Source: an uncultured delta proteobacterium (GTDB lineage: Bacteria > Desulfobacterota > Binatia > UBA9968). Taken from it: 64,000 nt of DNA. The DNA lies in assembly GCA_963727625.1 (NCBI GenBank), contig CAVSHR010000006.1, forward strand, positions 205,547 to 269,546, read 5' to 3'. The position numbers were made by a program, and so were the translations under genes. Positions 15,793-32,721 of this stretch are shown piece after piece. The notes under the pieces are model-generated. The model did not search any database. It saw only the letters and a program-made list of their open reading frames with translations, and was not told where the DNA came from. Position 1 is the first letter of the stretch, and every line of letters starts with the position of its first letter.

Positions 15793-15797
15793 GGAAG

Positions 15798-17085: not shown

Positions 17086-18066
17086 ATGAAAACCATTCCA
17101 TGCCTAATCCTAATCATCGGGTTGATGGGCGGTGGCGCAATCGCCCAGGCGCAGCAGCCAAAGAAAATCCCGCGGATAGGATTCCTCTATAGCGTTACCT
17201 CTTCCTCGGTGGCGGCCCGCGCCGAGGCATTCCGGCAAGGTCTGCGCGAGCTTGGCTACATTGAAGGGAAGAACATTGTTATTGAGTGGCGATTTGCAGA
17301 GGGAAAACTAGATCGCCTCCCCGCGCTTGTGTCGGAGCTGGTGCGTCTTAAGGTAGACGTGATCGTCACGAGTGGCTCGTCACCAACCCGCTCTGCCAGG
17401 AAAGCAACTGTTTCGATTCCCATTGTGATGGCGCGCGAAACCGATCCTGTTGGGAATGGATTCGTCGCCAGCTTGGCGCGGCCTGGCGGGAACATCACTG
17501 GATTGTCAATTCTCGCCCCGGAGATAAGCGGGAAACAGGTGGGGCTTTTGAAGGAGATTGTTCCCAGGCTCTCACGCGTGGCCGTCCTCGGGACTTCGAC
17601 CACTCTAGGTTGGGCACACTCGTTAAACGAGATGGAGATCGCTGCGGGGGCATTGGGAGTGAAGCTTCAGTACCTAGATGTGCTAAATGTCAAAGACATT
17701 GTGACTGTATTCCGAGCCGCAATTGAGGAGCGTGCTGACGCAGTCCTCGTGCTAGGGAGCCCAATTTACGCTTCTCATCGAAATCAGATTGCGGGCATCG
17801 CGGTAAAAAGCCGGCTTCCGACGATATACCGCAATTCACAATATGTGGAAGCCGGGGGACTTATGTCCTACGGGGTGAACCTGCCCGACTTGGACCGGCG
17901 CGCCGCTATTTATGTGGACAAAATTCTGAAAGGCAGGAAACCCGCAGACCTTCCCGTAGAGCAACCGGTCAAGTTCGAGTTTGTCATCAACCTGAAAACA
18001 GCAAAGCAAATCGGACTCACGATTCCGCCCAATGTACTTGCGCGGGCGAATAAAGTAATAAGGTGA
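17086..18066 (+). CDS. PF04392-type SBP, paralogue 9 (start-stop coupled to the histidine kinase)
   Basis: Signal peptide ending AQAQQPKKIPRIGFL, then ARPGGNITG and [30 protein letters not shown]. Its stop TGA (18064-18066) overlaps GTG 18063 of the kinase ORF. Confidence 0.9.
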   Translation: MKTIPCLILIIGLMGGGAIAQAQQPKKIPRIGFLYSVTSSSVAARAEAFRQGLRELGYIEGKNIVIEWRFAEGKLDRLPALVSELVRLKVDVIVTSGSSPTRSARKATVSIPIVMARETDPVGNGFVASLARPGGNITGLSILAPEISGKQVGLLKEIVPRLSRVAVLGTSTTLGWAHSLNEMEIAAGALGVKLQYLDVLNVKDIVTVFRAAIEERADAVLVLGSPIYASHRNQIAGIAVKSRLPTIYRNSQYVEAGGLMSYGVNLPDLDRRAAIYVDKILKGRKPADLPVEQPVKFEFVINLKTAKQIGLTIPPNVLARANKVIR

Positions 18067-20492
18067 ATACACCGCCCATGAGCCACTGGACCGCAAAGCT
18101 TCGGCAAATGCCTTTCTTAAGAATCTTTGGAGCGCCGCGCCGAGGGCGGTTAGTGCGCGACTACTTTCTGATCTCGGTCATCTTAATTGGCGGCGGGCTG
18201 ATCACCAGCGGCCTCGTCGAAATCTATTTTCGCTATCACGAAAGCCGCGATCAGTTGGGCCGCTTGCAGAAAGAGATCGCCGCCGGCGCCGCCTTCAAGA
18301 TCGAGAGCTTCGTTCAGGAGATTCACAATACCCTCAAGGGCGCGACTAAAAGCCGCGACATCGCGCCCAAGGGACTCACTCCGGACTTTCGCTTCGAGCT
18401 CGAAAAACTTTTGCTGATCGCGCCGGCAGTGACCGAAGCCGTAGCGCTCAATGAGAAAGGCCGGATCCAAGTCCAGGCGTCGCGCCTGCGCACCGTGCTG
18501 CCCGACGCCAGAAAGGATCTTTCCGGCTCGGAACCGTTCAAACAAGCGCGCGAGGGAAAGTCCTATTTCGGCCGGGTCTACTTCGTGCGCGGCTCCGAGC
18601 CCTATATGACGATCGCGGTCCCGATCGAGCGCTTCGCCGGCGACGTCATCGGCGTGCTGCAAGCGGAAGTCAACCTTAAATACATCGGCGATGTCGTTTC
18701 GAGTATCACCATCGGCAAAGCGGGTTATGCCTACGCTGTGAGCCGATCCGGCGAACTGATCGCCCACCCCGACATCAGTTTGGTCTTGCAACGCCGCAAC
18801 GTGCGCCAATTGGCTGCCGTCAAAGCCGCCTTCGAGAGCCAGCCCGGAGTGGCGCCACTAGACGCACTCGTCACAAAAAATATTCAGGGAAAGGAAGTGC
18901 TGAGTTCGTTTGCGATCATTCCCGATTTCGGCTGGGCGGTGATCGTCGACCGGCCCTTGGCCGAGGCCTACGAAGCGCTCTATGCCTCGATGCTGCGCAC
19001 CGCCGCTCTGTTCCTGATCGGTCTCAGCATGGCGCTATTCGCCAGTTATTTTCTCGCCCGCCGCGTCGTGCAACCGGTGCGGATACTGCGCGAAGGCGTG
19101 GAGCGCATCGGTACCGGCGATCTCGGCTATCGGTTGAATCTCAAGACCGGCGACGAAATAGAAGTGCTCGCCGATGAATTCAACAAAATGACTTCCCAGC
19201 TCGAGGAATCTTACGCCAACTTGGAGCAGAAGGTCGAAGACCGCACGAGGGAGCTGACGGAGTCGCTGGAGCAGCAGACGGCGACCAGCGAAGTCCTGCG
19301 CGTCATCGCGGGATCGCCGAAAGATGTCCAACCGGTGCTTGACGTCGTGGCGGAGCGGGCAGCAAAGCTCTGCGACGCCGAGGACGCGATCATCTTTCGC
19401 GCCTTTGGCGATTACCATCAGAGAGTCGCCAAGTTTGGCTCGATTCCAGCCCCGGATTTTCCGGTGTCGATCACGCGCGGTTTTCCCGGCGGCCGAGCCA
19501 TTCTCGACCGGAAGACCGTTCACATCCATGATATCGAGGAGGTGCTCGAGACCGAATATACGGACGTCCGGTCGATTCAAAAAGAGATCGGGCAGCGCAC
19601 CGTGCTCGCCACGCCACTCTTGCGCGAGGGCGTCGCGATCGGCGCCATCGTCATTCGCCGCCTGCAAGTACGGCCGTTTACCGACAAGCAGATTGCGCTG
19701 CTCAAAACCTTCGCCGATCAGGCCGTGATCGCCATCGAAAACGTCCGTCTGTTCCAGGAGATTCAGGAGAAGAACGAACAGCTCGAGGCTGCCAGCCGAC
19801 ACAAATCTCAATTTCTCGCCAACGTCAGCCACGAGCTGCGCACGCCGCTCAATTCGATCATCGGCTTTACAAGAATAGTTTTGCGCCGCACGGAGGGCAA
19901 GATCGAAAGCCTGCAAAAAGAAAATCTGAAAAAAGTTTTGATCAGCGCAGATCATTTGCTGAGCCTGATCAACGAGCTGCTCGACCTGGCAAAGATCGAG
20001 GCGGGGCGGATGGAAGCCTACGCGGAAACGTTTAAAGTCGACGAGATCATCCGCATGGCCATGTCCACGGTCGAACCGATGCTTAGGAACGGCCGGGTAA
20101 ATCTGGTCACGGACATCGCTCCGGACATTCCGCCGCTGAAAACCGATCGAGACAAGCTCAAACAGTCCGTCCTCAATCTTCTCAGCAACGCCGTCAAGTT
20201 CACCGAGAGCGGCGAGATCAAGGTCACAGCGTGGCGAGACAATGGTTCTTTGAAGCTCACCGTATCCGATACCGGCATAGGCATGAACCCGGAAGCGCTC
20301 CGATACATCTTCGACGAGTTCCGCCAGGCTGACATGTCGAGCACGCGCAAATACGGCGGCACGGGCCTTGGCTTGGCCATTGTGAAAAAGTTCATCAATC
20401 TTATGGGCGGCGATATCGTCGTCGCAAGCGAAGAAGGCAAAGGATCGACGTTCACGATCACGATGCCGCTGGAACTGAAAATTCAAGGGTAA
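18063..20492 (+). CDS. Sensor histidine kinase (2 TM + periplasmic Cache-like region, HAMP, GAF, HisKA, HATPase_c)
   Basis: 809 aa. TM1 is FLISVILIGGGLITSGLVEIYF, followed by about 270 aa of periplasmic sequence and TM2. Then HAMP (GTGDLGYRLNLKTGDEIEVLADEFNKM), GAF (TATSEVLRVIAGSPKDVQPVLD...), H-box SHELRTPLNSIIGF, and N/G boxes (LLSNAVKFT, DTGIGM, GGTGLGLAIV). An alternative start is ATG 18078. Confidence 0.9.
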   Translation: MNTPPMSHWTAKLRQMPFLRIFGAPRRGRLVRDYFLISVILIGGGLITSGLVEIYFRYHESRDQLGRLQKEIAAGAAFKIESFVQEIHNTLKGATKSRDIAPKGLTPDFRFELEKLLLIAPAVTEAVALNEKGRIQVQASRLRTVLPDARKDLSGSEPFKQAREGKSYFGRVYFVRGSEPYMTIAVPIERFAGDVIGVLQAEVNLKYIGDVVSSITIGKAGYAYAVSRSGELIAHPDISLVLQRRNVRQLAAVKAAFESQPGVAPLDALVTKNIQGKEVLSSFAIIPDFGWAVIVDRPLAEAYEALYASMLRTAALFLIGLSMALFASYFLARRVVQPVRILREGVERIGTGDLGYRLNLKTGDEIEVLADEFNKMTSQLEESYANLEQKVEDRTRELTESLEQQTATSEVLRVIAGSPKDVQPVLDVVAERAAKLCDAEDAIIFRAFGDYHQRVAKFGSIPAPDFPVSITRGFPGGRAILDRKTVHIHDIEEVLETEYTDVRSIQKEIGQRTVLATPLLREGVAIGAIVIRRLQVRPFTDKQIALLKTFADQAVIAIENVRLFQEIQEKNEQLEAASRHKSQFLANVSHELRTPLNSIIGFTRIVLRRTEGKIESLQKENLKKVLISADHLLSLINELLDLAKIEAGRMEAYAETFKVDEIIRMAMSTVEPMLRNGRVNLVTDIAPDIPPLKTDRDKLKQSVLNLLSNAVKFTESGEIKVTAWRDNGSLKLTVSDTGIGMNPEALRYIFDEFRQADMSSTRKYGGTGLGLAIVKKFINLMGGDIVVASEEGKGSTFTITMPLELKIQG

Positions 20493-20650
20493 GACGGCAA
20501 GAGTAAGAGACCGGGCGTAAGGCAAGTAATGCAGGATCTCTCGAGGAATTTAATCCTGAGCCGATTCGACTTTGCGTCGGGTAAACTTCGCCGAAGGCCT
20601 CAAAAATGTTTTTGGCTTTGCCAGTGGAAGCACCCCGAAGGGAAAAAATA

Positions 20651-22249: not shown

Positions 22250-22341
22250 ATTGGCTCGCGGGCTATCGACGCGGGCTCGTCAGCACGTGCTGGCGCGTCC
22301 CTGGGATAGTGGGGCCCGATTCGACGATACGAAACGATAAA

Positions 22342-22905
22342 ATGAGCAATCGAACGCGGCAGGAAATCGCAGGATTTCTAATTGTGATCGTGGCGATCCT
22401 CGGCACTCCGCCGGAGAATCACGCCGCGGCGCCGGATATGTTGGGGAAACTCCATCTCTCCACCTACCCTCGCGTCACAAAACCGCCAAAGTTCAATGGC
22501 ACCACTATCGATGGCCGGAAGGTATCTCTGGTTTCTCTGGTCGGCAAGGTTGTTGTCGTCAATTTCTGGGCGACCTGGTGCCAAGAATGCCGACTTGAGA
22601 TGCCCATGTTCGAGCAGATGCACCGCGAGTTCGCGGTGCATGGACTCAGTGTTATCGGGATCAATGCTCGCGAAGGGCCAGTGGCCATCCGTGCATACGC
22701 CAAAGAGCTCCGCTTAACTTTTCCCCTGTTGCTCGATCCAAAGGGAGAGATCAATGCGGCTTACGGAGTCGTCGGTCTACCGGCTACTTTTCTCATTGGT
22801 CGCGACAGACGCGCGGTTGCGCGGGCCGTCGGACCGAGAGAGTGGACGAGCAACCCCGCCATCGTCATTATCAGAACGCTCCTGAACGAGCCAATGGACC
22901 GATAA
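22342..22905 (+). CDS. TlpA/ResA-like periplasmic thiol:disulfide oxidoreductase
   Basis: Membrane anchor or signal sequence, then VVVNFWATWCQECRLEMP (CxxC) and GLPATFLIGRD. Confidence 0.85.
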   Translation: MSNRTRQEIAGFLIVIVAILGTPPENHAAAPDMLGKLHLSTYPRVTKPPKFNGTTIDGRKVSLVSLVGKVVVVNFWATWCQECRLEMPMFEQMHREFAVHGLSVIGINAREGPVAIRAYAKELRLTFPLLLDPKGEINAAYGVVGLPATFLIGRDRRAVARAVGPREWTSNPAIVIIRTLLNEPMDR

Positions 22906-22932: not shown

Positions 22933-23298
22933 ATGGAAATGAAAAAAATTCTCGTGGTCGATGACACGGATTGGAACCGCGACCTGCTGGTTCAGCTTCT
23001 GGAGGAAGACTACGAGATACTTCAGGCCGTTGACGGTGCCGAAGGCGTGAGAATAACGGAGCAGAGCAAGCCCGATCTGATCCTCATGGATCTCGGCATG
23101 CCGGTCATGGATGGATGGGAAGCGAGCCGGAGAATCAAAGCCGACCCCGGGCTCAAGCATATTCCGATTATCGCGGTTACGTCCCACGCCATGGTCGGCG
23201 ACGAGATCGAGGCCCGCAAGGCCGGCTGCGACGATTACCTGCCCAAGCCGATCGATGAAGATTTGCTGCTGCAAAAGATCAAAAAATTTCTCGAATAA
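22933..23298 (+). CDS. Stand-alone CheY-like response-regulator receiver
   Basis: 121 aa with ILVVDD, DLILMDLGMPVMDG, and KAGCDDYLPKPI. Confidence 0.9.
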   Translation: MEMKKILVVDDTDWNRDLLVQLLEEDYEILQAVDGAEGVRITEQSKPDLILMDLGMPVMDGWEASRRIKADPGLKHIPIIAVTSHAMVGDEIEARKAGCDDYLPKPIDEDLLLQKIKKFLE

Positions 23299-23341: not shown

Positions 23342-24424
23342 ATGTTAAACAAGATCCTCATCGTCGACGATGAGCCGTTTAATCTCGACCTCCTCGAGCA
23401 AGAGCTGGGCGACTACGACTACGTGATTGAAAGAGCGACTGATGGCACCGAGGCGCTGGAGAAAACCGCTAGTTTCGAGCCCGATGTCATATTGCTCGAT
23501 TACATGATGCCGCGCATGAACGGGCTCGAAGTCGTCAAACGGCTGCGCGAAAACCCGCAGCATAAGGGCATCCCGGTTATTCTGCTCACGGCCAAGGCAA
23601 CGCAGGAAGACAAAGTGCGCGGCCTCGACGCCGGCGCCGATGACTACGTGACCAAACCTTTCGACTCGATCGAGCTATTGGCGCGGGTGCGCGCCATGTT
23701 GCGGCTCAAGGAAATGCACGACCAACTTGAAGAATGGAACCGAACCCTCGCCGAAAAGGTGCAGGAACAGGTGCACGAGATCGAACGCATGGCCCGCCTC
23801 AAGCGCTATCTCTCGCCGCAAATCGCCGAGACCATCCTTGGCTCGGACGACTCGCTGTTCAAGACCCACCGGCGTGAAATTACCATCGTGTTTCTCGATC
23901 TCAGGGGATTTACCGCCTTCTCCGACAGCGCCGAGCCCGAAGAGGTCATGGAATTTTTGCGCCATTACCACGCCGAGATGGGCCAGTTAGTCTTCAAGTT
24001 CGAGGGCACATTGGAACGTTTCGTGGGCGACGGGATTGTGATAATTTTCAATGATCCGATTCCCTGCGAAAATTACGCCGAGAAGGCGGCGCGAATGGCG
24101 CTGGAGATGCGCGACCGGGTGAAGGAGCTGCGTGCCGCCTGGCGCAAAAAGGGATATGACCTGGATTTGGGCGTCGGCCTGGCGTGCGGTTACGCAACCC
24201 TGGGGACCATGGGCTTCGAAGGACGCATGGACTACGGCACGGTGGGTAATCTGCCGAATCTGGCGGCGCGCCTATGCGCCGAGGCCAAAGGCGGACAGAT
24301 CCTTACCGACCAGAAAACCATGAGTCGATTGGAAGACGGGTTTGCAGCGGAATCGATCCAGGAGCTAAATCTCAAAGGCATCAACCGCCCGGTTACGGCT
24401 TTCAATATCACGGGCGCCAAATAG
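23342..24424 (+). CDS. Response-regulator receiver fused to a class III adenylate/guanylate cyclase (CHD) domain
   Basis: Receiver (ILIVDDE...LLDYMMPRMNG...DAGADDYVTKPF), a coiled linker, then a CHD domain (ITIVFLDLRGFTAFS...ERFVGDGIVIIFNDP...GTVGNLPNLAARL). Confidence 0.9.
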   Translation: MLNKILIVDDEPFNLDLLEQELGDYDYVIERATDGTEALEKTASFEPDVILLDYMMPRMNGLEVVKRLRENPQHKGIPVILLTAKATQEDKVRGLDAGADDYVTKPFDSIELLARVRAMLRLKEMHDQLEEWNRTLAEKVQEQVHEIERMARLKRYLSPQIAETILGSDDSLFKTHRREITIVFLDLRGFTAFSDSAEPEEVMEFLRHYHAEMGQLVFKFEGTLERFVGDGIVIIFNDPIPCENYAEKAARMALEMRDRVKELRAAWRKKGYDLDLGVGLACGYATLGTMGFEGRMDYGTVGNLPNLAARLCAEAKGGQILTDQKTMSRLEDGFAAESIQELNLKGINRPVTAFNITGAK

Positions 24425-24433: not shown

Positions 24434-25366
24434 ATGCGCGGAAAACTTCAACGCGAAGCGAAAAACAAGCGGCCCTTTCGGGTAAAATTCTGGGGCGTGC
24501 GGGGAAGCTATCCGACGGTCGATCCCGATACACTCGCGGTCGGCGGAAACACTTCCTGCGTCGAAGTCGAAGTCGACGGCCGCCGCTTGATCTTCGATGC
24601 CGGCACCGGGATCATCCCGCTCGGCAAAGAGCTGTGCGACGGCGCGGTCGCGCCGCCGACGGCTTATATTTTTTTGAGCCACACCCATATCGATCATGTC
24701 ATGGGACTGTGTTTTTTCGAGCCGCTGCTGACCCCGAAGGCGCATTCTTTCATACTCGGTCCCGGCAATACCCGCGGCGCTCTGACGCGCAGTTTGCGGC
24801 ACTTGACTCACAGCCATCTGTTTCCGGTTTCGCTCGACGAGCTTAAAGGAAAGAAAGAAATCTTTTCCCTCGCCGGCGGCGAATCGATTCGCTTCGGCAC
24901 GACCGCGCGTCGACCGAAAATCGAGTCGGCGAAATCAGCGACTGTCGCCAACGGCGACGAGCTCGTCATCACCACCTGCAAAAGTCCGGCGCATCCACTC
25001 AACGGCGTCATGCTGTATCGGGTTCACTACCGCAACAAGAGTTTCGTCTACGCCACCGATATTGAACAGAAGGAGGGCGGCTATCGAGAGATCATCGAGT
25101 TCGTCCGCGGCACAGACCTGCTGGTTCACGATGCCCAATATCTTTCTGAAGAATATTCGGGACGCGCTAAACCGCGCAAAGGCTGGGGCCACAGCACCAT
25201 CGAAATGGCTGCCGAGGTTGCCCGAAAGGCCAAGGTCAAACGGCTCTTGCTGTTCCACCACGAGCCAACCCACGACGACAAGACCATGAAGAAGATCGAA
25301 AAGCAGACAAAACTGCTCTTTCGCTCGACCGAGGTCGCCCATGAAGGTATGGAAATCACTCTTTAG
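24434..25366 (+). CDS. MBL-fold metallo-hydrolase
   Basis: 310 aa with the HxHxDH motif (FLSHTHIDHVMG) and later HDAQY / GHST metal-ligand-type motifs. Substrate unknown. Confidence 0.8.
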   Translation: MRGKLQREAKNKRPFRVKFWGVRGSYPTVDPDTLAVGGNTSCVEVEVDGRRLIFDAGTGIIPLGKELCDGAVAPPTAYIFLSHTHIDHVMGLCFFEPLLTPKAHSFILGPGNTRGALTRSLRHLTHSHLFPVSLDELKGKKEIFSLAGGESIRFGTTARRPKIESAKSATVANGDELVITTCKSPAHPLNGVMLYRVHYRNKSFVYATDIEQKEGGYREIIEFVRGTDLLVHDAQYLSEEYSGRAKPRKGWGHSTIEMAAEVARKAKVKRLLLFHHEPTHDDKTMKKIEKQTKLLFRSTEVAHEGMEITL

Positions 25367-26402
25367 TCGAACTACAACCGCACCCGATCCGCACAATCAA
25401 TCGTCCGCTACGGGCCCCAGCCGCCGCCTAGACGGGCGTCTGCTCGCCACATCGTTCATGGCACTGTTTCTTCTGCAGCCGCTGTGCACCTTCGCCCAGG
25501 CGCCGGCCCGCGTGGGGATTTTAGTTCGGGAACTGGGCCGTGCTCAGTTCCAGGCGATCAAGGGCCTGACGGAGGAACTCAAACGGCTGGGCTATATAAA
25601 CCGGGAAAATCTCGTTTTGGAAACTCGTAACGTCAAGGGCAGCCGGGCCGCGTTGCAACCCGCGGCCGCCGAGTTAATCGGCCAAAAGGTCGATCTGATT
25701 TTCACCACGGGGACCAGCGCCACCCGCGCGGCCGTGACCGCGACCCGGGAGATTCCAGTTGTGTTTGTTCACCCAGGCGACCCGGTTGCTTCCGGCTTGT
25801 TCAAAAGCGCCGAACTGCGGTCGGCAAACTTGACGGGCGTCGCGGCTTACGCCGGTGAAACCACCGAAAAGAGATTGGCGCTTTTCAATGAAATCTTTCC
25901 TGGGCTCCGAAAGGTCGTGGTCTTCTTTGATGGTAACAATGCCTCTTCGCGCGATAAGTACAAGATGGTCGAAAACTTAGCAAAAAAATCTCATCTCGAA
26001 GCGGCCGCCTTTGCGGTTAAATCCGCCGACGAGTTGCGTACCACCATCGCTAACTTGCACCCTGGAAACGGAATGGGCGTGTTTCAAGTGGCCGATGAGT
26101 TGGTTGAGAGCGAAGCGGAGTTTCTTTTTCAAAACGCTCGGGTGAAGAAAATCGCTACGATGTTCAACGAAGAATCGTGGGCGATTAACGGAGCGCTTGC
26201 CGCTTATGGGCCCAATTACTTTGAAATGGGTCGTCAAGCGGGCGGCCTCGCCGCGAAGATTATCAAAGGGAAGCGCCCGTCCTCCTTGCCGATCGAGCAC
26301 GCAACCCAATTCGATCTGACGCTCAATTATCGCACCAGTCGATTTATCGGCGTGCCGCTTCCCAGGAAGCTGATTAAAAAAGCAAACAAAGTCATTCGCT
26401 AG
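25341..26402 (+). CDS. PF04392-type SBP, paralogue 11 (most divergent)
   Basis: Hydrophobic leader FMALFLLQPLCTFAQAPARVGILV, then LKRLGYINRENL and a C-terminus FDLTLNYRTSRFIGVPLPRKLIKKANKVIR. The start is uncertain, since the ORF overlaps the MBL gene by 26 nt. Confidence 0.75.
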   Translation: MKVWKSLFSRTTTAPDPHNQSSATGPSRRLDGRLLATSFMALFLLQPLCTFAQAPARVGILVRELGRAQFQAIKGLTEELKRLGYINRENLVLETRNVKGSRAALQPAAAELIGQKVDLIFTTGTSATRAAVTATREIPVVFVHPGDPVASGLFKSAELRSANLTGVAAYAGETTEKRLALFNEIFPGLRKVVVFFDGNNASSRDKYKMVENLAKKSHLEAAAFAVKSADELRTTIANLHPGNGMGVFQVADELVESEAEFLFQNARVKKIATMFNEESWAINGALAAYGPNYFEMGRQAGGLAAKIIKGKRPSSLPIEHATQFDLTLNYRTSRFIGVPLPRKLIKKANKVIR

Positions 26403-26405
26403 GCT

Positions 26406-29066
26406 ATGGAAACCCTCGCCGATATCATTCGCAGCATTCCGATATTTTCCGGCGTTTCGCGCGAAGATATCGCCAAAATCCTGGGCAAAATGGAAGAGGA
26501 ATCGTTCGGCGCCGGAGAGACGATTTTTTCCCAAGGCGACCAGGGTGACGCATTTTATTTGATTCAATCCGGTGCGGTGCAAGTCATTCTAGAAAGCGGC
26601 GCCGGTAAATCGGATGTCGTCGCTATTCTTGGGCCGCGCGATTGGTTCGGGGAAATGGCTTTGCTTTCGGGCGAGCCTCGCTCGGCAACAATTGACACGG
26701 TCAAGAAAACCGTTCTTTGGCGGCTCCGACGCGAGGATTGGGACGAATTGATCGAAAAGCACCCGACTTGGTTGCTGCAATTTTGCGCCACCCTGAGCAA
26801 AAGGCTTTCTTACGTTGATCGCCAATACTCGACCGGACGCGAGGCGTTCAACTCCTTGGCCGAGGAGTTTTACGCGGCGCGCTCGCCCGACGATCAAGCA
26901 TTTTTTCGCCAAGCGTCCTTGCTGCGCGCCATCGACAGGAAAACTTTGGCCGAGCTGCTTTCCGTCGCGGCGCCTGCCAATCTCTTAACCGAGCTCGCCG
27001 CGAGCCAATTCCCGCTGATCCGTCGTTTGGAACAAGACCGTTACGAGCTGCATAGTTTTTTTCGCGAATTCCTCCACGAGAAATTGTTCGCCACCGACGG
27101 CGCCGAAGCAAAAGAACGGCTCCATCGTCAATTTGCCGACCGGTACGAAGCCATTGGCGATTGGCAGGAGGCGGCTCATCATGCCCTGCAAGTTCAGGAT
27201 TGGTCCAAAGCGAGCAAGCTGCTGACGGCGGCAGATGAGCAATCCCTGGCCGGCGCGGCGCTATTCGTTAAAAACACTTTGGACGATTTCCCTCAAGAGC
27301 AATTCTTGGCCGATCCCCGCCTGGTCAACCTCAAGAGCAACGCTTTGATTCAACTGGGCGATAGGGTCGGCGCCTATCGGGCCTATCGCGAAATCCTGGC
27401 CCGCAAGACATCCGGCGCGGCGGACAACGACGGCATCGCCGGCTACCGCCGCATGGCCGAAACCCTGGCGCAGCGCAAAGAATACGGGCAGGCGATCCAT
27501 CACCTGCGCAGCGCGCTCAACCTGATCAGCCAGGAAGCGACGGCGTCGGACAGTTACCAAGAAACTCTCCCGGAAATGACGTGGCCCGGGATGGCCCTCC
27601 CGCCGCTATCGGATAGCGGCGGGAGGACGCTGCGAATCGGCCTGCGTTCATGGAGTCCTTGGCTCCGCTCTTCGTCATTGAGTAAATGGTTCGGCGCGCT
27701 TCTGGGACTAGCAGTCGGTGGTTTTCTGTGGTTCGGTCAACCGGATATCGGCTTGGATCCGTCCGCCACGAAGCTCCTGGGCTTGATTTCTGCAACGCTG
27801 ACCTTTTGGGTCTTCAGGTCCCTGCCGGACTACGGCGTCGCCTTGGCGTTTGCCATGATCATCATTCTCACGCGCTTGGAATCGCCGCAAACGGTGATGG
27901 GCGGTTTCGCCAGCACGACCTGGTTTATGACGCTGGGTGTCCTCGGACTTGGCGCGGCGATTACCGGCTGCGGCCTATTCTATCGCCTCTCGCTGCATCT
28001 CGTGCGTCTGTTTCCGTTGAGCTATTACTGGCAAATCGTTGCCACCGGCATCATGGGCGTCGTTGTCATGGCGCTGATTCCGCAGCAAACCGCGCGCACG
28101 GTGATCACCAGCCAGATGCTGGTCAATCTTTCCGAAAGCCTAGGCTACAAGACACCGTCCAGAGCATCCACCGGCCTATTCGTGGCAAGTTTTCTCGGTC
28201 TCGGCCAACTAGGATTTTTGTTTTTGACCGGCTCGACGACGAGCTTGATCGCCTGGGGTCTTTTGCCCGCCGACGTGCGCGCGCAATTTACTTGGGGCTT
28301 TTGGTTCCTCGCCGCTTTGCCCCCTACCCTCGTGGTAATCGTTATCATTCTGCTTTGCACGATCTTGCTCTACCGCCCGGAGTCGCGACCGAAGATTTCC
28401 TACACGATGGTGCAAACCCAGCTCAGTATTCTCGGACCCCTGTCTCATAAAGAATGGATCAGCTTCGCCGTGCTGATTTTCACGGTGACAGGCTGGCTCA
28501 CGGCGCCCTATCACGGCGTCGACGGCGCGTGGATTGCGATCATCGCCTTTGCCATTCTAGTCAACACCGGTACTCTCGATTGGAACATGATGCGCAAGGG
28601 CATCGACTGGGAATTGTTGATTTACATGGGCGTGACTTTAAGCATACCGACGCTCTTAAGGCAGGCGAAGATCGACCAGTGGCTGGTCGAGGTGATTTCG
28701 CCTTTGATTCTGCCGTTCATCAACAGCCCGGCCTGGTTTTTCGTGGTGATCGCGCTTTTGACTTACGCGCTCAAGCTGATCTTTACGAGTTTTCTCACCG
28801 TGGTCACTCTATGCGTCGCATTGTTGCCGTTATCCATCGACGTCGGTATGAGCCCGTGGATCATCACCATGATTATCTTGATCGCTTCCGAGGTGTGGTT
28901 TTTCCCCTATCAGATCGACTGGCATATGCTCGCCTACTCCACCACCGACGGCAAAGGTTTCTCTTATCCACTTATGTGCCGTATCAATATTTTTTACGCC
29001 ATCGCGTACTTGACCGCGTTGATCGTCGCGATTCCCTACTGGCGCTACTTGGGTTTGATCAATTAG
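26406..29066 (+). CDS. Fusion protein: cNMP-binding domain + helical-repeat (MalT/TPR-like) region + DASS/SLC13-like (IT-superfamily) permease
   Basis: 886 aa. The N-terminus has a Crp-type cNMP fold (IPIFSGVSREDIAKI...FGEMALLSGEPRSATIDT). Residues from about 150 to 400 are helical repeats. The C-terminal part of about 450 aa is polytopic membrane domain with an anion-permease-like pattern. Confidence 0.75.
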   Translation: METLADIIRSIPIFSGVSREDIAKILGKMEEESFGAGETIFSQGDQGDAFYLIQSGAVQVILESGAGKSDVVAILGPRDWFGEMALLSGEPRSATIDTVKKTVLWRLRREDWDELIEKHPTWLLQFCATLSKRLSYVDRQYSTGREAFNSLAEEFYAARSPDDQAFFRQASLLRAIDRKTLAELLSVAAPANLLTELAASQFPLIRRLEQDRYELHSFFREFLHEKLFATDGAEAKERLHRQFADRYEAIGDWQEAAHHALQVQDWSKASKLLTAADEQSLAGAALFVKNTLDDFPQEQFLADPRLVNLKSNALIQLGDRVGAYRAYREILARKTSGAADNDGIAGYRRMAETLAQRKEYGQAIHHLRSALNLISQEATASDSYQETLPEMTWPGMALPPLSDSGGRTLRIGLRSWSPWLRSSSLSKWFGALLGLAVGGFLWFGQPDIGLDPSATKLLGLISATLTFWVFRSLPDYGVALAFAMIIILTRLESPQTVMGGFASTTWFMTLGVLGLGAAITGCGLFYRLSLHLVRLFPLSYYWQIVATGIMGVVVMALIPQQTARTVITSQMLVNLSESLGYKTPSRASTGLFVASFLGLGQLGFLFLTGSTTSLIAWGLLPADVRAQFTWGFWFLAALPPTLVVIVIILLCTILLYRPESRPKISYTMVQTQLSILGPLSHKEWISFAVLIFTVTGWLTAPYHGVDGAWIAIIAFAILVNTGTLDWNMMRKGIDWELLIYMGVTLSIPTLLRQAKIDQWLVEVISPLILPFINSPAWFFVVIALLTYALKLIFTSFLTVVTLCVALLPLSIDVGMSPWIITMIILIASEVWFFPYQIDWHMLAYSTTDGKGFSYPLMCRINIFYAIAYLTALIVAIPYWRYLGLIN

Positions 29067-29073: not shown

Positions 29074-30417
29074 ATGAGCCAAACTATTCTCATCGTCGAC
29101 GACGAACCGCTCAATCTCGATCTCTTGGAACAGGAGCTGTCCGATCTCGGTTATCCAGTCGATAAGGCAGACGGCGGCCGCGCGGCTTTGGCGCAACTGG
29201 CCGCGAAACCCGCCGATCTCGTTCTACTCGACTACCAGATGCCCGGCTTGAACGGCATCGAGGTATTAGGCGAGATTAAGAAAAGAGAGCCTGGCCTGCC
29301 GGTCATCATCATCACGGCCTACGGCACCATCGAACGCGCCGTCGAAGCGATTAAAGCCGGCGCGGACGATTTCATCACCAAGCCCTTTGACCCAGAGCAT
29401 CTTGCGGTCGTCGTCAACAAAGCCCTGGAAAAAGCCCGGCTTCGCTCCGAAGTGGAATTGCTCACGCGCGAGCTCGCCGGCCGTTATTATCTGGTTGCGG
29501 GAAATAGCATCGCGATGGCGGCGGCGCTGGCCGACGCGAAGAAAGCGGCGCGCAGCACGACTACTGTGTTACTGCTTGGCGAGAGCGGCACCGGCAAAGA
29601 GATTTTCGCCCGCTCGATTCACGAATGGAGCGATCGAGCGGCCCGGCCTTTCGTCGCGATCAACTGCGCCGGACTTTCCAAGGAGTTACTCGAAAGCGAG
29701 CTGTTCGGCCACGAACGCGGCGCCTTCACCGGCGCGCACCAGGCGAAGAAAGGCAAGATGGAAACGGCCGACGGCGGCACGGTCTTTCTCGATGAGGTTG
29801 GCGATATCGCGCCCGAGCTGCAAACCAAGCTGCTGCGCTTTCTCCAAGAGCGCGAATTCGAGCGGGTTGGCGGCATCCAGCCCATCCGCGTCGATATCAA
29901 AATCATCGCCGCGACCAACAAGAATCTCGAGGAAACGGTGCAACGCGGTTCGTTCCGCGAAGACTTGTACCACCGGCTGAACGTCATCGCGATCGCACTG
30001 CCGCCGTTGCGCGATCGAAAAGATGACATCCCCGCCTTGGCGGACTATTTTTTGCGCCGCTTTGCATCGGAGACGAAAAAACCCTTCACCGGCTTGAGTG
30101 AAGACGCCTTGGCTCGGTTGTGCGCCTACGCTTGGCCCGGCAATGTGCGGGAATTGGCCAACGTCATTGAGCGCGGCGTTGTCTTGGGCGACGGCCCTCG
30201 ATTTGCCGCTGATCATTTGCCGGCGCGGATGATCGGCACCGCAGCCGCATCGCCACCGGAGGCAAGACAATTTCACGACGCTGTGAATAGCCACCGCCGC
30301 GCGTTGATCGTCGACGCCCTCGCGCGCGCCCAGGGCAACCGCGCGGCGGCGGCAAAAACCCTCGGCCTGCACCGTACCCACCTGCTCAAGCTGATGAAGG
30401 CGCTCGGGATCACCTGA
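29074..30417 (+). CDS. Sigma-54-dependent (NtrC-family) response regulator
   Basis: Receiver (ILIVDDE...LLDYQMPGLNG), AAA+ module (GESGTGKE, ESELFGHERGAFTGA, RFLQEREFERVGG) and a C-terminal Fis-type HTH (GNRAAAAKTLGLHRTHLLKLMKAL). Confidence 0.92.
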   Translation: MSQTILIVDDEPLNLDLLEQELSDLGYPVDKADGGRAALAQLAAKPADLVLLDYQMPGLNGIEVLGEIKKREPGLPVIIITAYGTIERAVEAIKAGADDFITKPFDPEHLAVVVNKALEKARLRSEVELLTRELAGRYYLVAGNSIAMAAALADAKKAARSTTTVLLLGESGTGKEIFARSIHEWSDRAARPFVAINCAGLSKELLESELFGHERGAFTGAHQAKKGKMETADGGTVFLDEVGDIAPELQTKLLRFLQEREFERVGGIQPIRVDIKIIAATNKNLEETVQRGSFREDLYHRLNVIAIALPPLRDRKDDIPALADYFLRRFASETKKPFTGLSEDALARLCAYAWPGNVRELANVIERGVVLGDGPRFAADHLPARMIGTAAASPPEARQFHDAVNSHRRALIVDALARAQGNRAAAAKTLGLHRTHLLKLMKALGIT

Positions 30418-31423: not shown

Positions 31424-31987
31424 ATGACGATCCGATTCCTTTACCGCCTCCGGTATGTGATTGTGCTTACTGCGAGTCTGTTGACGCTTGATGTTGCGCC
31501 GCTGGGGAGTCAGTCGAGAGTCGATTACAAAGCGGTACCGATTCTGCAGCCGATGAAGGACCGGTCCCCCACGCCGGATTTTAGTTTGACCACGCCTGAG
31601 GAAAAAAAAATTTCACTCAAGGATTTCCGCGGTAAAGTTGTTTTGCTGAATTTCTGGGCGAGCTGGTGCGTGCCCTGTCGCGAAGAAATGCCGGCAATGG
31701 AAAAACTCTATCAGGAGTATAAAGGAAGCAATTTTGTCGTCTTGGCCGTGGCCGTAAAGGACCGTAAACAAGACGCCGTCGATTTCGTCAAGGAGCTTAA
31801 AATTACTTATCCCATTGCGCTCGATCCCGACGCCCAAGTGGGCAATCTGTACGGCGCTTGGGGATTACCCGCGACCTATTTGATCGGCGCAAAAGGCGAA
31901 GGCTTGGCGCGCGGCTGGGGACCGGCGGAGTGGTACAGCCAGGCGGCGCGCAAATTGATTAAAGATCTGGTCGACGGCAAACGATGA
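31424..31987 (+). CDS. TlpA-like periplasmic thiol:disulfide oxidoreductase
   Basis: Signal/anchor sequence, then [18 protein letters not shown] and [13 protein letters not shown] overlap with ccdA. Confidence 0.88.
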
Positions 31988-32721
31988 CGGACATCAACGT
32001 TTTTGTCGCCTTTGCCGCGGGCGTTTTTTCGTTTCTCTCGCCCTGTGTTTTGCCGCTAATTCCCTCCTATCTTTCTTTCGTCTCGGGCGTGTCGCTGGAT
32101 GAAATGCGCAACGATCAAGCCCGCTCTCGGGTGCGCTGGCGGGTGGTTTTAAACTCCATCGCGTTCATCATTGGCTTTTCTCTGGTGTTCGTGTCTCTCG
32201 GCGCTTCGGCAAGTTTTCTCGGCGGGCTTTTTTTGGGCTACCGCAACGTCATTCGCATTTTCGGCGGCGTGTTCATACTGCTCGTCGGCCTCTACCTCGT
32301 CGGACTTTTCAAGATCGCGGCGCTCGATCGCTATTTGCAATTTAATTTGAAGGATAAGCCGGCCGGCTATTTCGGTTCGATCCTGGTCGGCATAACCTTC
32401 GCCGTGGCCTGGACTCCCTGCGTCGGGCCGATCCTCGGAGCCACGCTGGCGCTCGCCAGTACGGCGGGTGAAGTGGGCCGCGGTACGCTGCTGTTGTCCA
32501 GCTACGCGGCAGGGTTGGCGCTGCCGTTTTTCTTGAGCGCCTTGGCAATTAATTCCTTCTTCCAATTTTCGCAGAAACTGCGCCGCTACGTTCAAGCCAT
32601 CCACGTCGTCGGTGGTCTGCTCTTGATCATCGTCGGCATTCTTTTGATTACCGACTACATGACGCTGCTCAATGCTTACGCCTTGCGCTTTACGCCGCAA
32701 TGGTTGCTGCAACGGCTTTAA
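31984..32721 (+). CDS. ccdA: Cytochrome c biogenesis thiol-reductant transporter CcdA (DsbD-core family)
   Basis: 245 aa, 6 TM, with both conserved Cys motifs (SFLSPCVLPLIPSYL and AWTPCVGPILG). Confidence 0.88.
   Translation: MTDINVFVAFAAGVFSFLSPCVLPLIPSYLSFVSGVSLDEMRNDQARSRVRWRVVLNSIAFIIGFSLVFVSLGASASFLGGLFLGYRNVIRIFGGVFILLVGLYLVGLFKIAALDRYLQFNLKDKPAGYFGSILVGITFAVAWTPCVGPILGATLALASTAGEVGRGTLLLSSYAAGLALPFFLSALAINSFFQFSQKLRRYVQAIHVVGGLLLIIVGILLITDYMTLLNAYALRFTPQWLLQRL

What the first reader, a model, noticed from the sequence alone, without database searches (positions are those of the whole stretch)
26406..29066. Unusual three-part fusion: cNMP-binding domain + MalT/TPR-like helical region + DASS/SLC13-like permease
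- The N-terminal 140 aa carry the canonical cNMP signature (FGEMALLSGEPRSATIDT).
- Residues from about 150 to 400 are soluble helical repeats resembling the sensor region of MalT/LuxR-type regulators.
- The C-terminal part of about 450 aa is a polytopic anion-permease-like domain.
- A secondary transporter directly gated by a cyclic nucleotide would be a compact ligand-gated uptake device.
- The gene starts 3 nt after an SBP gene. That raises the further possibility of an SBP-assisted secondary transporter outside the known TRAP and TTT classes.
Basis: partly seen in the sequence, partly recalled or inferred. Interest (0 to 1): 0.65.

Follow-up and report, generated by a model that had tools for sequence, protein, structure and literature searches.

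The report
Cyclic-nucleotide-sensing DASS transporter with partner binding protein
This is a real, widely conserved but unstudied membrane protein: an anion transporter carrying its own cyclic-nucleotide sensor, encoded beside the enzymes that make that signal and, in many genomes, beside a dedicated periplasmic binding protein.

Summary
ORF 26406-29066 (+) encodes 886 aa:
- a canonical cyclic-nucleotide-binding domain (CNBD);
- a MalT-type winged-helix plus TPR region;
- a disordered linker;
- a DASS-fold permease (TM-score 0.86 to AtDiT2.1).

It is not an assembly fusion. More than 120 protein clusters at 74-100% identity have the same length and architecture. Clades at 27-35% identity keep it too.

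The DASS part resembles Na+-independent exchangers (DiT, LaINDY). The SNT motifs are lost. An invariant Arg sits where LaINDY has its Na1-surrogate Arg.

In Binatia the gene ends a conserved cassette: sensor kinase, REC, REC-cyclase, metallo-beta-lactamase (MBL)-fold hydrolase, PF04392 binding protein (SBP), CNBD-DASS. Six class III cyclase architectures sit near family members in three lineages, which supports cNMP control.

The SBP gene lies directly upstream in 22 of 31 species genomes, sometimes as a two-gene unit. It forms its own orthogroup. In Desulfoscipio a Peripla_BP_6 domain is fused to the DASS C-terminus. That supports an SBP-assisted DASS system, but only in some lineages.

No paper I could find describes it. 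Best reading: a cNMP-regulated, SBP-assisted DASS transporter. All function is inferred.

The parts
26406..29066 (+). Whole gene: CNBD, MalT-type WHD/TPR and DASS permease in one protein of 886 aa
   Evidence: ORF and translation. Domain scans. More than 120 clusters with the same architecture. AF2 model with mean pLDDT 83.
26406..26876 (+). Cyclic-nucleotide-binding domain with its N-terminal helix and long C-helix (aa 1-157). Pfam core is aa 32-119.
   Evidence: PF00027 at 85 bits. Sequence matches to PKA-R, PKG, SthK and CRP structures. The model shows a beta-roll followed by helix 121-157.
26646..26699 (+). Phosphate-binding cassette FGEMALLSGEPRSATIDT (aa 81-98)
   Evidence: Located. G82 and E83 are invariant and R92 nearly invariant across clades at 25-54% identity and across 118 sequences. 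Matches the 'Other_bacterial' consensus GEMALLDGEPRSATVVA of PMC2246266.
26850..27548 (+). MalT-type winged-helix domain plus TPR-like helical repeats (aa 149-381). Includes the 'RYELHSFFREFL' motif at aa 212-223.
   Evidence: NCBIfam MalT PRK04841 matches aa 149-311, aligned to MalT 253-416, E 2.8e-10. Precomputed PF25873 WHD_MalT and PF17874 TPR_MalT hits in relatives. TPR_2 and TPR_12 hits. The models show a small beta-hairpin followed by paired helices.
27549..27671 (+). Predicted disordered tether between the soluble module and the membrane domain (aa 382-422)
   Evidence: pLDDT below 50 for aa 382-422. Poorly conserved and variable in length in the alignment.
27672..29063 (+). DASS-fold permease domain (aa 423-886)
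   Evidence: PF00939 at 121 bits and PF03600. Foldseek: AtDiT2.1 TMt 0.86, VcINDY 0.80-0.84, NaCT 0.81. Profile search against PDB: DiT1 115 bits, DiT2.1 103, LaINDY 98, VcINDY 68.
28077..28097 (+). Hairpin-in tip 'IPQQTAR' (aa 558-564). P559 and R564 are invariant.
   Evidence: Aligns to LaINDY 'IPSNSAR' and DiT 'IPSVSAR'. The LaINDY Arg (Arg159) is the Na1-site surrogate conserved in DASS exchangers (PMC7553777). Invariance shown.
28884..28913 (+). Hairpin-out tip 'ASEVWFFPYQ' (aa 827-836). E829 stands where canonical DASS has the Asn of the second SNT motif. Q836 is invariant.
   Evidence: Alignments. The family has N, D or E at this position in 15 of 16 aligned sequences.
25341..26402 (+). 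PF04392 (ABC_sub_bind) periplasmic binding protein, the probable partner. Its stop codon lies 3 nt before the fusion gene.
   Evidence: PF04392 at 172 bits. Signal-peptide-like segment '...RRLDGRLLATSFMALFLLQPLCTFAQA'. Directly upstream in 22 of 31 species genomes. Identity is 43-66% to those SBPs but only 27-33% to the 10 other paralogs in the window.
24434..25366 (+). MBL-fold hydrolase with an HxHxDH motif, a candidate cNMP phosphodiesterase
   Evidence: PF12706. Weak matches to RNase Z-type phosphodiesterases and to NF041851 'cyclic nucleotide-degrading phosphodiesterase'. Conserved between the cyclase and SBP genes.
23342..24424 (+). Response-regulator receiver fused to a class III nucleotide cyclase
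   Evidence: PF00072 and PF00211. The closest solved structure is the P. aeruginosa CyaB catalytic domain, 125 bits. Conserved in the cassette.
22933..23298 (+). Single-domain response-regulator receiver
   Evidence: PF00072. Conserved upstream of the REC-cyclase gene.
18063..20492 (+). Sensor histidine kinase (dCache-HAMP-GAF-HisKA-HATPase), probable input of the cascade
   Evidence: Pfam. Orthologs head the cassette in L002 and L004.
29074..30417 (+). Sigma-54-dependent response regulator (NtrC/AtoC type), 8 nt downstream. An optional member of the cassette.
   Evidence: Pfam and NCBIfam. Present after the ortholog in L011-L013 but absent in L001, L002, L004 and L005.

Best explanation
**What it is.** The gene encodes a homolog of dimeric DASS elevator transporters. 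Its cytoplasmic N-terminus carries a CRP-like cyclic-nucleotide sensor (CNBD plus C-helix), followed by a MalT-type winged-helix/TPR module on a flexible tether.

**Proposed pathway.**
- The upstream dCache-HAMP-GAF histidine kinase phosphorylates the receiver domain of the REC-cyclase.
- The cyclase raises a 3',5'-cyclic nucleotide. The neighbouring MBL-fold hydrolase probably removes it.
- Nucleotide binding to the CNBD releases or imposes a block on the transport cycle of the DASS domain.
- The signal therefore acts on the transporter protein itself, and not only on its expression.

**Transport type.** The DASS domain is of the Na+-independent, exchanger-like type (DiT, LaINDY). It most likely moves an organic or inorganic anion.

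**SBP role.** In this organism and most Binatia, the co-transcribed periplasmic PF04392 protein is proposed to dock on the periplasmic face. There it would hand over, or signal the presence of, the substrate.

**Shown.**
- The domain architecture.
- The DASS fold.
- Conservation of the binding-cassette and hairpin residues.
- Gene linkage to cyclases and to the SBP.

**Inferred.**
- Which nucleotide is bound.
- The direction of regulation.
- The substrate.
- The SBP-transporter contact.
For: **Architecture and fold:**

**Not an artefact.** More than 120 clusters share the same length and domains. Deep clades at 27-35% identity keep the architecture.

**The CNBD looks functional.** Gly-Glu and Arg of the phosphate-binding cassette are conserved across all clades. 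The best structural and sequence relatives are cAMP/cGMP binders.

**Cyclase linkage across lineages and cyclase types.**
- REC-cyclase (window; L001, L002, L004-L006, L009, L010, L013).
- CHASE2-cyclase (L023; Desulfoscipio L091).
- STAND-type cyclase (L021).
- GAF-cyclase (L090).
- SCO4226-like-cyclase (L089).
- An unclassified class III cyclase on the opposite strand in L020, L027, L032, L036 and L037.

**The transport domain is under constraint.** P559, R564 and Q836 are invariant, among others. R564 aligns with LaINDY Arg159, the exchanger hallmark.

**SBP partnership.**
- The gap is 3 nt.
- The SBP gene is directly upstream in 22 of 31 species genomes.
- In L023 and L032 it forms a two-gene unit flanked on both sides by opposite-strand genes. 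In L015 only the upstream flank is opposite-strand.
- It is a dedicated orthogroup.
- In Desulfoscipio gibsoniae, Peripla_BP_6 is fused about 15 aa after the DASS C-terminal motif, with no extra TM segment.
- The DASS C-terminus is periplasmic in VcINDY (PMC7553777).

**Precedents.**
- TAXI-GltS was established by the same logic of linkage plus fusions in Firmicutes (PMC12344293).
- Yeast Pho90 (8r33, 8r34) is among the DASS-fold structural matches. From my own knowledge, it carries an N-terminal SPX regulatory domain.
Against: - No binding, transport or interaction data exist for any family member.
- The relative position of the soluble module and the membrane domain is not predicted with confidence (pTM 0.55, 40-residue disordered tether). 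The gating mechanism is therefore unknown.
- SBP linkage is not universal. It is absent in 9 of 31 species genomes. It is also absent in the clade ~34% identical to the window protein and in short-linker relatives.
- Structurally characterised PF04392 proteins bind aromatic amino acids (PMC10443332). That is not an obvious DASS substrate.
- Exchangers are not usually paired with SBPs.
- This organism also places PF04392 genes next to a histidine kinase, so the SBP could serve signalling.
- CNBDs can bind other ligands, for example ppGpp in HetC (PMC10986499).
- The cyclase's substrate-specifying pair is Arg/Gly, which is non-canonical. The nucleotide cannot be named.
Confidence: 0.55

Rival explanations
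1. Cyclic-nucleotide-regulated DASS transporter that works without the binding protein. On this view the PF04392 gene is merely co-regulated cargo of the operon. It would serve the dCache kinase or an ABC system encoded elsewhere.
For: - SBP linkage is absent in 9 of 31 species genomes and in distant clades that still keep a cyclase nearby.
- The window has 11 PF04392 paralogs. One of them overlaps the start of the histidine kinase gene.
- Known PF04392 ligands are aromatic amino acids.
Against: - The SBP stays with the transporter when the kinase, REC, REC-cyclase and MBL genes are gone, as a two-gene unit in L023 and L032.
- It is a distinct orthogroup that travels with the transporter.
- An SBP domain is physically fused to the C-terminus of a CNBD-DASS in Desulfoscipio and in a metagenomic relative.
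Confidence: 0.2
2. Transceptor or signalling scaffold. The DASS-like domain, with the SBP, would act mainly as an extracytoplasmic ligand sensor. The CNBD/TPR module would relay that state, combined with the cNMP level, to partner proteins such as the sigma-54 regulator or a kinase. Net transport would be secondary or lost.
For: - The TPR/WHD module is a typical protein-interaction unit.
- A relative carries a C-terminal HisKA domain (P0296).
- In a Geobacteraceae genome, tandem CNBD-DASS genes are followed directly by a soluble GAF kinase and a NarL-type regulator.
- Desulfotruncus has a CNBD-1TM-SBP protein with no DASS domain at all.
- A sigma-54 response regulator lies 8 nt downstream here and in L011-L013.
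Against: - The protein has no recognised output domain.
- Hairpin-tip and other transport-domain residues are invariant over deep divergence, as expected for a working carrier.
- The sigma-54 regulator is missing from most orthologous loci.
Confidence: 0.17
3. Pycsar-like antiphage module. A class III-type cyclase would make a cyclic nucleotide on infection, and a CNBD-membrane effector would kill the cell.
For: PADLOC gives weak domain-level hits: the CNBD to PycTIR and Pycsar effector models (51 bits) and the cyclase to PycC (59 bits).
Against: - The hits are generic domain homology and weaker than the Pfam hits.
- The effector is a 464-aa DASS-fold permease with conserved carrier residues, not a short pore-forming TM domain.
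- The cassette sits in conserved chromosomal synteny next to mreBCD, PBP2, rodA and thioredoxin-system genes, with a two-component input and an SBP.
Confidence: 0.02
4. Assembly or gene-calling artefact that joins a CRP-like regulator gene to a separate DASS permease gene.
For: None was found. The only hints are the 40-residue low-confidence linker and a few shorter database entries, all on short contigs or marked partial.
Against: - The frame is uninterrupted.
- The architecture is identical in more than 120 clusters from independent assemblies, including contigs of 150 kb to 3.5 Mb, and in clades at 27-35% identity.
Confidence: 0.01

Closest known systems
Na+-independent DASS exchangers: plant plastid DiT1/DiT2.1 and Lactobacillus LaINDY (TC 2.A.47, Pfam PF00939)
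   Same: - Same fold (TMt 0.86 to AtDiT2.1).
- Best profile scores of all solved structures (115, 103 and 98 bits, against 68 for VcINDY).
- The hairpin-in motif 'IP-x-x-x-A/G-R' carries the Arg that replaces Na1 in exchangers.
   Different: - None of these has a cytoplasmic sensor domain or an SBP partner.
- The Na2-surrogate His of LaINDY is not visibly conserved. The family has Tyr-Gln there and N/D/E at the hairpin-out tip.
- Identity is only about 20%.
Yeast Pho90/Pho87: a DASS-fold phosphate carrier with an N-terminal SPX regulatory domain
   Same: A DASS-fold carrier (8r33 and 8r34 appear among the structural matches). From my own knowledge, its N-terminal cytoplasmic SPX domain senses a small phosphorylated messenger and controls transport.
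   Different: The sensor here is a CNBD plus WHD/TPR, not SPX. The messenger is a cyclic nucleotide, not an inositol pyrophosphate. The lineage is bacterial. Sequence similarity is marginal (E 0.0014).
Bacterial cyclic-nucleotide-gated channels (SthK, MloK1) and other CNBD-transporter fusions
   Same: - A canonical CNBD is fused to a membrane transport protein. The CNBD is similar to that of SthK (E about 5e-14).
- A review notes MFS-CNBD fusions as uncharacterised 'plug and play' regulators (PMC10710835).
- MFS, Na+/H+ exchanger, SulP and ZIP fusions also turned up here.
   Different: - In those channels the CNBD is C-terminal to a tetrameric pore. Here it is N-terminal to a dimeric elevator carrier, with an extra WHD/TPR module between them.
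- The 2007 CNB census lists no DASS class (PMC2246266).
SBP-dependent secondary transporters: TRAP, TTT and the recently proposed TAXI-GltS class
   Same: - The membrane part is an elevator-type carrier.
- The SBP gene is adjacent and tightly spaced.
- SBP fusions occur in a Gram-positive relative.
- This is the same evidence pattern that defined TAXI-GltS (PMC12344293).
   Different: - The membrane component is DASS, not DctQM, TctAB or GltS.
- The SBPs belong to PF04392 or Peripla_BP_6, which are normally ABC-associated families, not DctP, TAXI or TctC.
- The carrier looks like an exchanger.
- SBP dependence is untested.
CRP/FNR regulators and MalT-type STAND regulators (source of the soluble modules)
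   Same: - The order CNBD, C-helix, winged helix aligns to whole CRP/GlxR structures.
- The winged helix and following repeats match the MalT WHD/arm profile and PF25873/PF17874.
   Different: - There is no STAND ATPase (NOD) domain and no LuxR HTH.
- There is no evidence of DNA binding.
- The module is tethered to a membrane carrier.

Membership tests
DASS / SLC13 (Pfam PF00939, TC 2.A.47) | Profile match over the whole permease domain, above the curated threshold | tested here: met
   PF00939 at 121 bits against a cut-off of 27, covering profile positions 3-471 of 472. The narrower NCBIfam TIGR00785 'sodium-coupled anion symporter' model scores 122 bits, below its cut-off of 198.6.
DASS / SLC13 (Pfam PF00939, TC 2.A.47) | DASS fold | tested here: met
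   AF2 model with pLDDT of about 75-93 across the domain. Foldseek TMt is 0.86 to AtDiT2.1, 0.80-0.84 to VcINDY and 0.81 to NaCT. Scaffold and transport domains and the helical hairpins were not examined separately in the model.
DASS / SLC13 (Pfam PF00939, TC 2.A.47) | Two Ser-Asn-Thr motifs at the hairpin tips, which bind Na+ and the carboxylates in Na+-coupled members | tested here: not met
   The window has QQT at the first tip and S-E-V at the second. The family is variable at both. It should therefore not be filed as a Na+-coupled symporter.
DASS exchanger subgroup (DiT, LaINDY) | Arg in the Na1 site (LaINDY Arg159) | tested here: met
   The invariant R564 in 'IPQQTAR' aligns with the LaINDY 'IPSNSAR' Arg.
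DASS exchanger subgroup (DiT, LaINDY) | His in the Na2 site (LaINDY His392) | tested here: inconclusive
   The LaINDY alignment stops before the hairpin-out tip. Against DiT2.1, the family shows Tyr835-Gln836 near the position of the DiT His.
Cyclic-nucleotide-binding domain (PF00027) | Beta-roll with a phosphate-binding cassette G-E-x-A-L...R-[ST]-A | tested here: met
   PF00027 at 85 bits against 27.5. FGEMALLSGEPRSAT is present. G82 and E83 are invariant and R92 nearly invariant.
Cyclic-nucleotide-binding domain (PF00027) | Actual binding of cAMP or cGMP | not testable with these tools
   Only the genomic context with class III cyclases supports it.
MalT / STAND signal-transduction ATPases | Winged-helix domain and arm with the MalT signature, followed by TPR/SUPR repeats | tested here: met
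   NCBIfam MalT matches aa 149-311, aligned to MalT 253-416, E 2.8e-10. PF25873 and PF17874 are listed for relatives. TPR hits.
MalT / STAND signal-transduction ATPases | NOD/AAA+ nucleotide-binding oligomerisation domain and a LuxR-type DNA-binding domain | tested here: not met
   No ATPase or HTH family was hit in Pfam or NCBIfam. The protein is not a STAND protein. It only carries the WHD-TPR module.
SBP-dependent secondary transporters (TRAP, TTT, TAXI-GltS) | SBP gene genetically coupled to the carrier gene, with SBP-carrier fusions in some lineages | tested here: met
   3-nt gap. Directly upstream in 22 of 31 species genomes. Two-gene units. CNBD-DASS-Peripla_BP_6 fusions P0171 and P0271.
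SBP-dependent secondary transporters (TRAP, TTT, TAXI-GltS) | Membrane component of DctQM, TctAB or GltS type, and an SBP of DctP, TAXI or TctC type | tested here: not met
   The carrier is DASS. The SBP is PF04392, or Peripla_BP_6 in the fusions. If SBP-dependent, it would be a separate class.
SBP-dependent secondary transporters (TRAP, TTT, TAXI-GltS) | Transport requires the SBP | not testable with these tools
   Needs reconstitution.
Pycsar antiphage systems | Dedicated pyrimidine cyclase plus a CNBD effector with a short TM or TIR killing domain, in a defence-island context | tested here: not met
   Only generic domain hits of 51-59 bits. The effector is a full DASS permease. The neighbourhood is conserved core chromosome.

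The most novel reading that the evidence does not exclude
[quoted passage not shown] It would stand beside TRAP, TTT and TAXI-GltS. Its transport cycle would in addition be switched directly by a cyclic nucleotide produced by a two-component-controlled cyclase. That would make it a three-input device: periplasmic ligand, second messenger, and whatever binds the TPR module.
Probability: 0.3. Interest if true: 0.8.

Novelty: new variant of a known kind. Interest (0 to 1): 0.6.

Why it matters
- **Post-translational control of bacterial carriers.** This is little understood, and a 2023 review lists CNBD-transporter fusions as uncharacterised (PMC10710835). This family offers a large, diverse and genetically well-framed test case. 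The messenger-making enzyme, a likely degrading enzyme and the target are encoded together.
- **Elevator mechanism.** It would be the first second-messenger-gated member of the DASS/SLC13 fold, whose human members are drug targets. It would show how a tethered cytoplasmic domain can stall an elevator carrier.
- **SBP hypothesis.** If the SBP partnership holds, it bears directly on the suggestion in PMC12344293 that SBPs associate with elevator-type carriers. It would also show that ABC-type SBP families can be recruited by secondary carriers.
- **cNMP targets.** It would assign a physiological target to cNMP signalling in Binatia and in other uncultured soil and sediment lineages.

Tried and rejected
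1. **Assembly fusion.** Rejected, because the architecture recurs widely.
2. **Defence system.** The PADLOC scan gave only generic domain hits, and the context is core chromosome.
3. **SBP adjacency as a universal feature of CNBD-DASS proteins.** Rejected.
   - Three short-linker relatives have no adjacent SBP.
   - Two members of the clade ~34% identical to the window protein have none either.
4. **Family-wide genome scan.** The scan with the 16-sequence alignment failed for lack of a conserved stretch. The 6-sequence alignment worked, but its pattern lay in the CNBD. About half of the 80 loci were therefore unrelated CNBD proteins of Myxococcota and were ignored.
5. **Naming the nucleotide from the cyclase.** The specificity pair is Arg/Gly. 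CyaB has Lys/Thr and Cya2 has Glu/Gly. This is not decisive.
6. **Promoter, terminator and sigma-54 promoter scans** around the cassette gave nothing above chance.
7. **Separate model of the N-terminal 385 aa**, made to place the middle domain structurally. The top 50 Foldseek hits were nearly all CRP-family regulators, with a few PKG and CNBD-only entries. No MalT structure appeared among them. The MalT assignment therefore rests on sequence profiles only.
8. **Literature searches** for a CNBD-DASS or SBP-DASS description found none. This covers only the open-access library held here.
9. **Paenibacillus P0316.** The context look-up found no record.

Full report
**1.

The window has one uninterrupted ORF at 26406-29066 (+), with an ATG start and 886 aa. 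The upstream PF04392 ORF ends with TAG at 26400-26402, 3 nt before the ATG.

Domain scans give the following:
- Pfam cNMP_binding at aa 32-119 (85 bits), including FGEMALLSGEPRSATIDT at aa 81-98.
- Pfam Na_sulph_symp at aa 427-884 (121 bits) and CitMHS at aa 466-819.
- NCBIfam's MalT model matches aa 149-311, aligned to MalT residues 253-416 (E 2.8e-10).
- Weak TPR hits follow.
- The protein database's precomputed Pfam lists add PF25873 (WHD_MalT) for this protein and almost all relatives.

An AlphaFold2 model built on 118 family sequences has mean pLDDT 83. It shows:
- a beta-roll CNBD with a long C-helix (to about aa 157);
- a small winged-helix unit and paired helices (to aa 381);
- a disordered tether (aa 382-422, pLDDT below 50);
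- a helical membrane domain (aa 423-886).

**2. It is a real gene and a large family**

The full-length search returned more than 120 clusters at 74-100% identity. All are 873-890 aa apart from two shorter entries, and all have the same domains. Those with an NCBI name are called 'SLC13 family permease', mostly from Candidatus Binatia.

An exhaustive search of 50%-identity representatives found 657 proteins at E <= 1e-30. Among them:
- at least 14 further clusters of 868-914 aa align end to end at 27-35% identity and keep the three-part architecture;
- many proteins of 610-1040 aa have a CNBD, a shorter or longer linker and a DASS domain.

A second profile search recovered a whole clade around P0124 (~34% identical to the window protein), one member of which is assigned to Methylomirabilis. 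The assembly-fusion explanation is therefore rejected.

'Unusual' is relative. Annotation pipelines already see the combination. JGI names some members 'di/tricarboxylate transporter/CRP-like cAMP-binding protein'.

I found no paper that describes it:
- The 2007 census of CNB domains has no DASS class (PMC2246266).
- A 2023 review of transporter regulation mentions only MFS-CNBD fusions, as uncharacterised (PMC10710835).
- Targeted searches found nothing.

**3. What kind of DASS domain**

Foldseek places the membrane domain firmly in the DASS fold. Target-normalised TM-scores are 0.86 for AtDiT2.1, 0.80-0.84 for VcINDY and 0.81 for NaCT. Yeast Pho90 is also matched.

A profile of the DASS part alone scores highest against the Na+-independent exchangers:

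| Structure | Bits |
|---|---|
| DiT1 | 115 |
| DiT2.1 | 103 |
| LaINDY | 98 |
| VcINDY | 68 |
| SLC13 proteins | 36-52 |

The two Ser-Asn-Thr motifs that bind Na+ and substrate in symporters are not kept. The window has QQT and S-E-V.

The hairpin-in tip reads IPQQTAR. Its Arg (R564) is invariant in 118 sequences. It aligns with the Arg of LaINDY 'IPSNSAR'. [quoted passage not shown]

The second surrogate (His392) is not evidently conserved. The family has an N/D/E residue at the hairpin-out tip (E829 here) and an invariant Gln (Q836).

Inference: this is a Na+-independent, exchanger-like or otherwise atypically coupled carrier. Deep conservation of transport-domain residues argues that it still transports.

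**4. The soluble module**

The phosphate-binding cassette has the Gly-Glu and Arg that contact the cyclic phosphate. These are invariant or nearly so across all clades. Sequence neighbours among solved structures are PKA-R, PKG, SthK and CRP.

A separate model of aa 1-385 (pLDDT 80) aligns over 210-255 columns with whole CRP/GlxR proteins. The order CNBD, C-helix, winged helix is therefore CRP-like.

By sequence the winged helix and the following repeats are of MalT type. There is no STAND ATPase and no LuxR HTH, so the protein is not a MalT-family member.

The orientation of this module relative to the carrier is not predicted (pTM 0.55). How it would gate transport is open.

**5. Genomic context: a cyclic-nucleotide cassette**

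All on the + strand, with gaps of 3-10 nt (or a short overlap) from the REC-cyclase gene onward, the window has:

| Coordinates | Gene |
|---|---|
| 18063-20492 | dCache-HAMP-GAF histidine kinase |
| 22933-23298 | REC |
| 23342-24424 | REC plus class III cyclase |
| 24434-25366 | MBL-fold hydrolase |
| 25341-26402 | PF04392 SBP |
| 26406-29066 | CNBD-DASS |
| 29074-30417 | sigma-54 response regulator |

The block from the REC-cyclase gene through MBL and SBP to CNBD-DASS recurs in independent contigs whose downstream genes differ. In most of them the kinase and the REC gene precede it (L001, L002, L004, L005).

A tblastn survey of 42 loci shows the same genes, sometimes permuted. L013 has MBL, SBP, DASS, sigma-54 RR, HK, REC, SBP and REC-cyclase in that order.

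More telling, other cyclase types replace the REC-cyclase elsewhere:
- CHASE2-cyclase (L023; also in Desulfoscipio gibsoniae);
- a cyclase-AAA-TPR_MalT STAND protein (L021);
- GAF-cyclase (L090);
- SCO4226-like-cyclase (L089).

Linkage to varied class III cyclases in three lineages (Binatia, the P0124 clade and Desulfoscipio) is the main argument that the CNBD reads a cyclase product.

The nucleotide cannot be named. The cyclase's specificity pair is Arg/Gly, whereas CyaB has Lys/Thr and Cya2 has Glu/Gly.

The MBL protein resembles RNase Z-type phosphodiesterases only distantly. Its role as the degrading enzyme is inferred from position.

**6. The binding protein**

Several points favour a partnership with the carrier:
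- In the one-genome-per-species collection, 22 of 31 loci with enough upstream sequence have a PF04392 gene directly upstream on the same strand.
- In L023 and L032 the pair is flanked on both sides by genes on the opposite strand, so it is a two-gene unit. In L015 only the upstream flank is opposite-strand.
- In these loci the kinase, REC, REC-cyclase and MBL genes are absent. The SBP therefore follows the carrier, not the kinase.
- The adjacent SBPs are 43-66% identical to the window's copy. The window's ten other PF04392 paralogs are only 27-33% identical to it. It is a dedicated orthogroup.
- The protein has a signal-peptide-like N-terminus.
- P0171 and the Desulfoscipio gibsoniae protein P0271 (1009 aa, from a complete genome) are CNBD-DASS proteins with a Peripla_BP_6 domain fused about 15 residues after the conserved C-terminal 'LPFW..L.LI' motif. 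No extra TM segment intervenes.
- The DASS C-terminus lies on the periplasmic surface in VcINDY.
- Separate genes in Binatia and a fusion in a Firmicute is the pattern used to propose TAXI-GltS as a new SBP-dependent secondary transporter. Its authors note that SBPs so far associate with elevator-type carriers (PMC12344293). DASS is an elevator carrier.

Several points count against generality:
- Nine of 31 species genomes lack the adjacent SBP.
- So do the clade ~34% identical to the window protein and three short-linker relatives.
- Known PF04392 ligands are aromatic amino acids.
- The fused SBP belongs to a different family.
- Desulfotruncus has a CNBD-1TM-SBP protein with no DASS domain at all. 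That leaves room for a signalling role.

**7. Mechanism and rivals**

Best-supported model (confidence about 0.55):
- A two-component input drives cNMP synthesis.
- The nucleotide binds the N-terminal CNBD of a dimeric, exchanger-like DASS carrier and switches its activity.
- The TPR/WHD module adds a further interaction surface.
- In this lineage a dedicated periplasmic SBP assists or informs the carrier.

Rivals:

| Rival | Confidence | Main reason |
|---|---|---|
| Same carrier, but the SBP is only co-regulated | 0.2 | SBP linkage is missing in several lineages |
| Transceptor or scaffold with little transport | 0.17 | HisKA fusion P0296, HK-RR genes after tandem paralogs in L086, the DASS-less derivative |
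| Pycsar-like defence | 0.02 | Only generic PADLOC hits; core-chromosome context |
| Artefact | 0.01 | Architecture recurs widely |

**8. Novelty and score**

The parts are known. The combination is catalogued by databases but undescribed and untested. I rate it a new variant of known kinds: a regulated DASS carrier, a CNBD-controlled membrane protein, and possibly an SBP-dependent secondary transporter. Interest is 0.6.

The most novel reading not excluded is an SBP-dependent, cNMP-gated DASS system as a new transporter class. I give it a probability of about 0.3.

Noticed in passing
window 5525-21625 and 25341-26402: There are eleven paralogous PF04392 (ABC_sub_bind) binding-protein genes on the + strand, starting at 5525, 6665, 7594, 9301, 10305, 12236, 14075, 15943, 17086, 20606 and 25341. 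The DASS-adjacent copy (25341) is 27-33% identical to each of the other ten. No ABC permease or ATPase was found among the window ORFs that were scanned. They look like orphan SBPs, possibly used for signalling.
   Followed up: partly
window 17086-20492: The stop of PF04392 gene 17086-18066 overlaps the called start (GTG 18063) of the dCache-HAMP-GAF histidine kinase by 4 nt. Another PF04392 gene follows the kinase at 20606. This suggests SBP-kinase pairing in the same organism.
   Followed up: no
window 29074-30417; L011, L012, L013: A sigma-54-dependent NtrC/AtoC-type response regulator starts 8 nt after the CNBD-DASS stop. It is also present after the ortholog in the 71-72%-identity group, but is absent from most other orthologous loci. 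No cognate sigma-54 promoter was identified near the cassette.
   Followed up: partly
window 53405-53420 (+): There is an exact match to the sigma-54 -24/-12 consensus TGGCAC-N5-TTGC (TGGCACAGCGGTTGCT). It is the only perfect match in the window and lies at the start of ORF 53351-54667. Matches with up to 2 mismatches overall are not above chance.
   Followed up: no
L091 (Desulfoscipio gibsoniae CP003273.1) 1-16300; L043 (Desulfotruncus arcticus); L087: In Desulfotomaculia the CNBD-DASS(-SBP) gene sits inside a peptide-natural-product-type cluster. The cluster holds GNAT, radical SAM, two NHase_alpha-like small proteins, a CHASE2-cyclase, an OmpR-type regulator, a HlyD-like protein, a C39-peptidase ABC exporter and a second ABC exporter. 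In Desulfotruncus the same slot holds a CNBD-1TM-Peripla_BP_6 protein without any DASS domain.
   Followed up: partly
proteins P0296, P0206, P0230; locus L086 4099-9721: Other architectures occur around the same DASS subfamily:
- CNBD-DASS-HisKA (779 aa);
- CstA-CNBD-DASS (1380 aa);
- DASS-PG_binding_1;
- in a Geobacteraceae genome, two tandem CNBD-DASS genes followed without a gap by a soluble GAF histidine kinase and a NarL-type regulator.
   Followed up: no
window 23342-24424 (cyclase domain, aa ~175-355): The REC-cyclase has Arg where adenylate cyclases have the adenine-specifying Lys ('LERFVGDG'). It has Gly where class IIIb cyclases have Thr ('MDYGTVGN'). The pair Arg/Gly matches neither CyaB (Lys/Thr) nor the guanylate cyclase Cya2 (Glu/Gly), so the product nucleotide is unclear.
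   Followed up: partly
window 22309-22905 and 31424-32721: Two TlpA/AhpC-like thiol-disulfide oxidoreductase genes and a DsbD-type membrane protein flank the cassette. The AhpC-DsbD-GTP cyclohydrolase I-leucyl aminopeptidase block downstream is syntenic in L001 and L002.
   Followed up: no
window 25341-25366: If the first ATG is used, the SBP ORF overlaps the end of the MBL-hydrolase ORF by 26 nt. It then carries about 30 residues before the hydrophobic core of the signal peptide, including an 'SRRLDG' stretch that faintly resembles a twin-arginine motif. The true start was not resolved.
   Followed up: no
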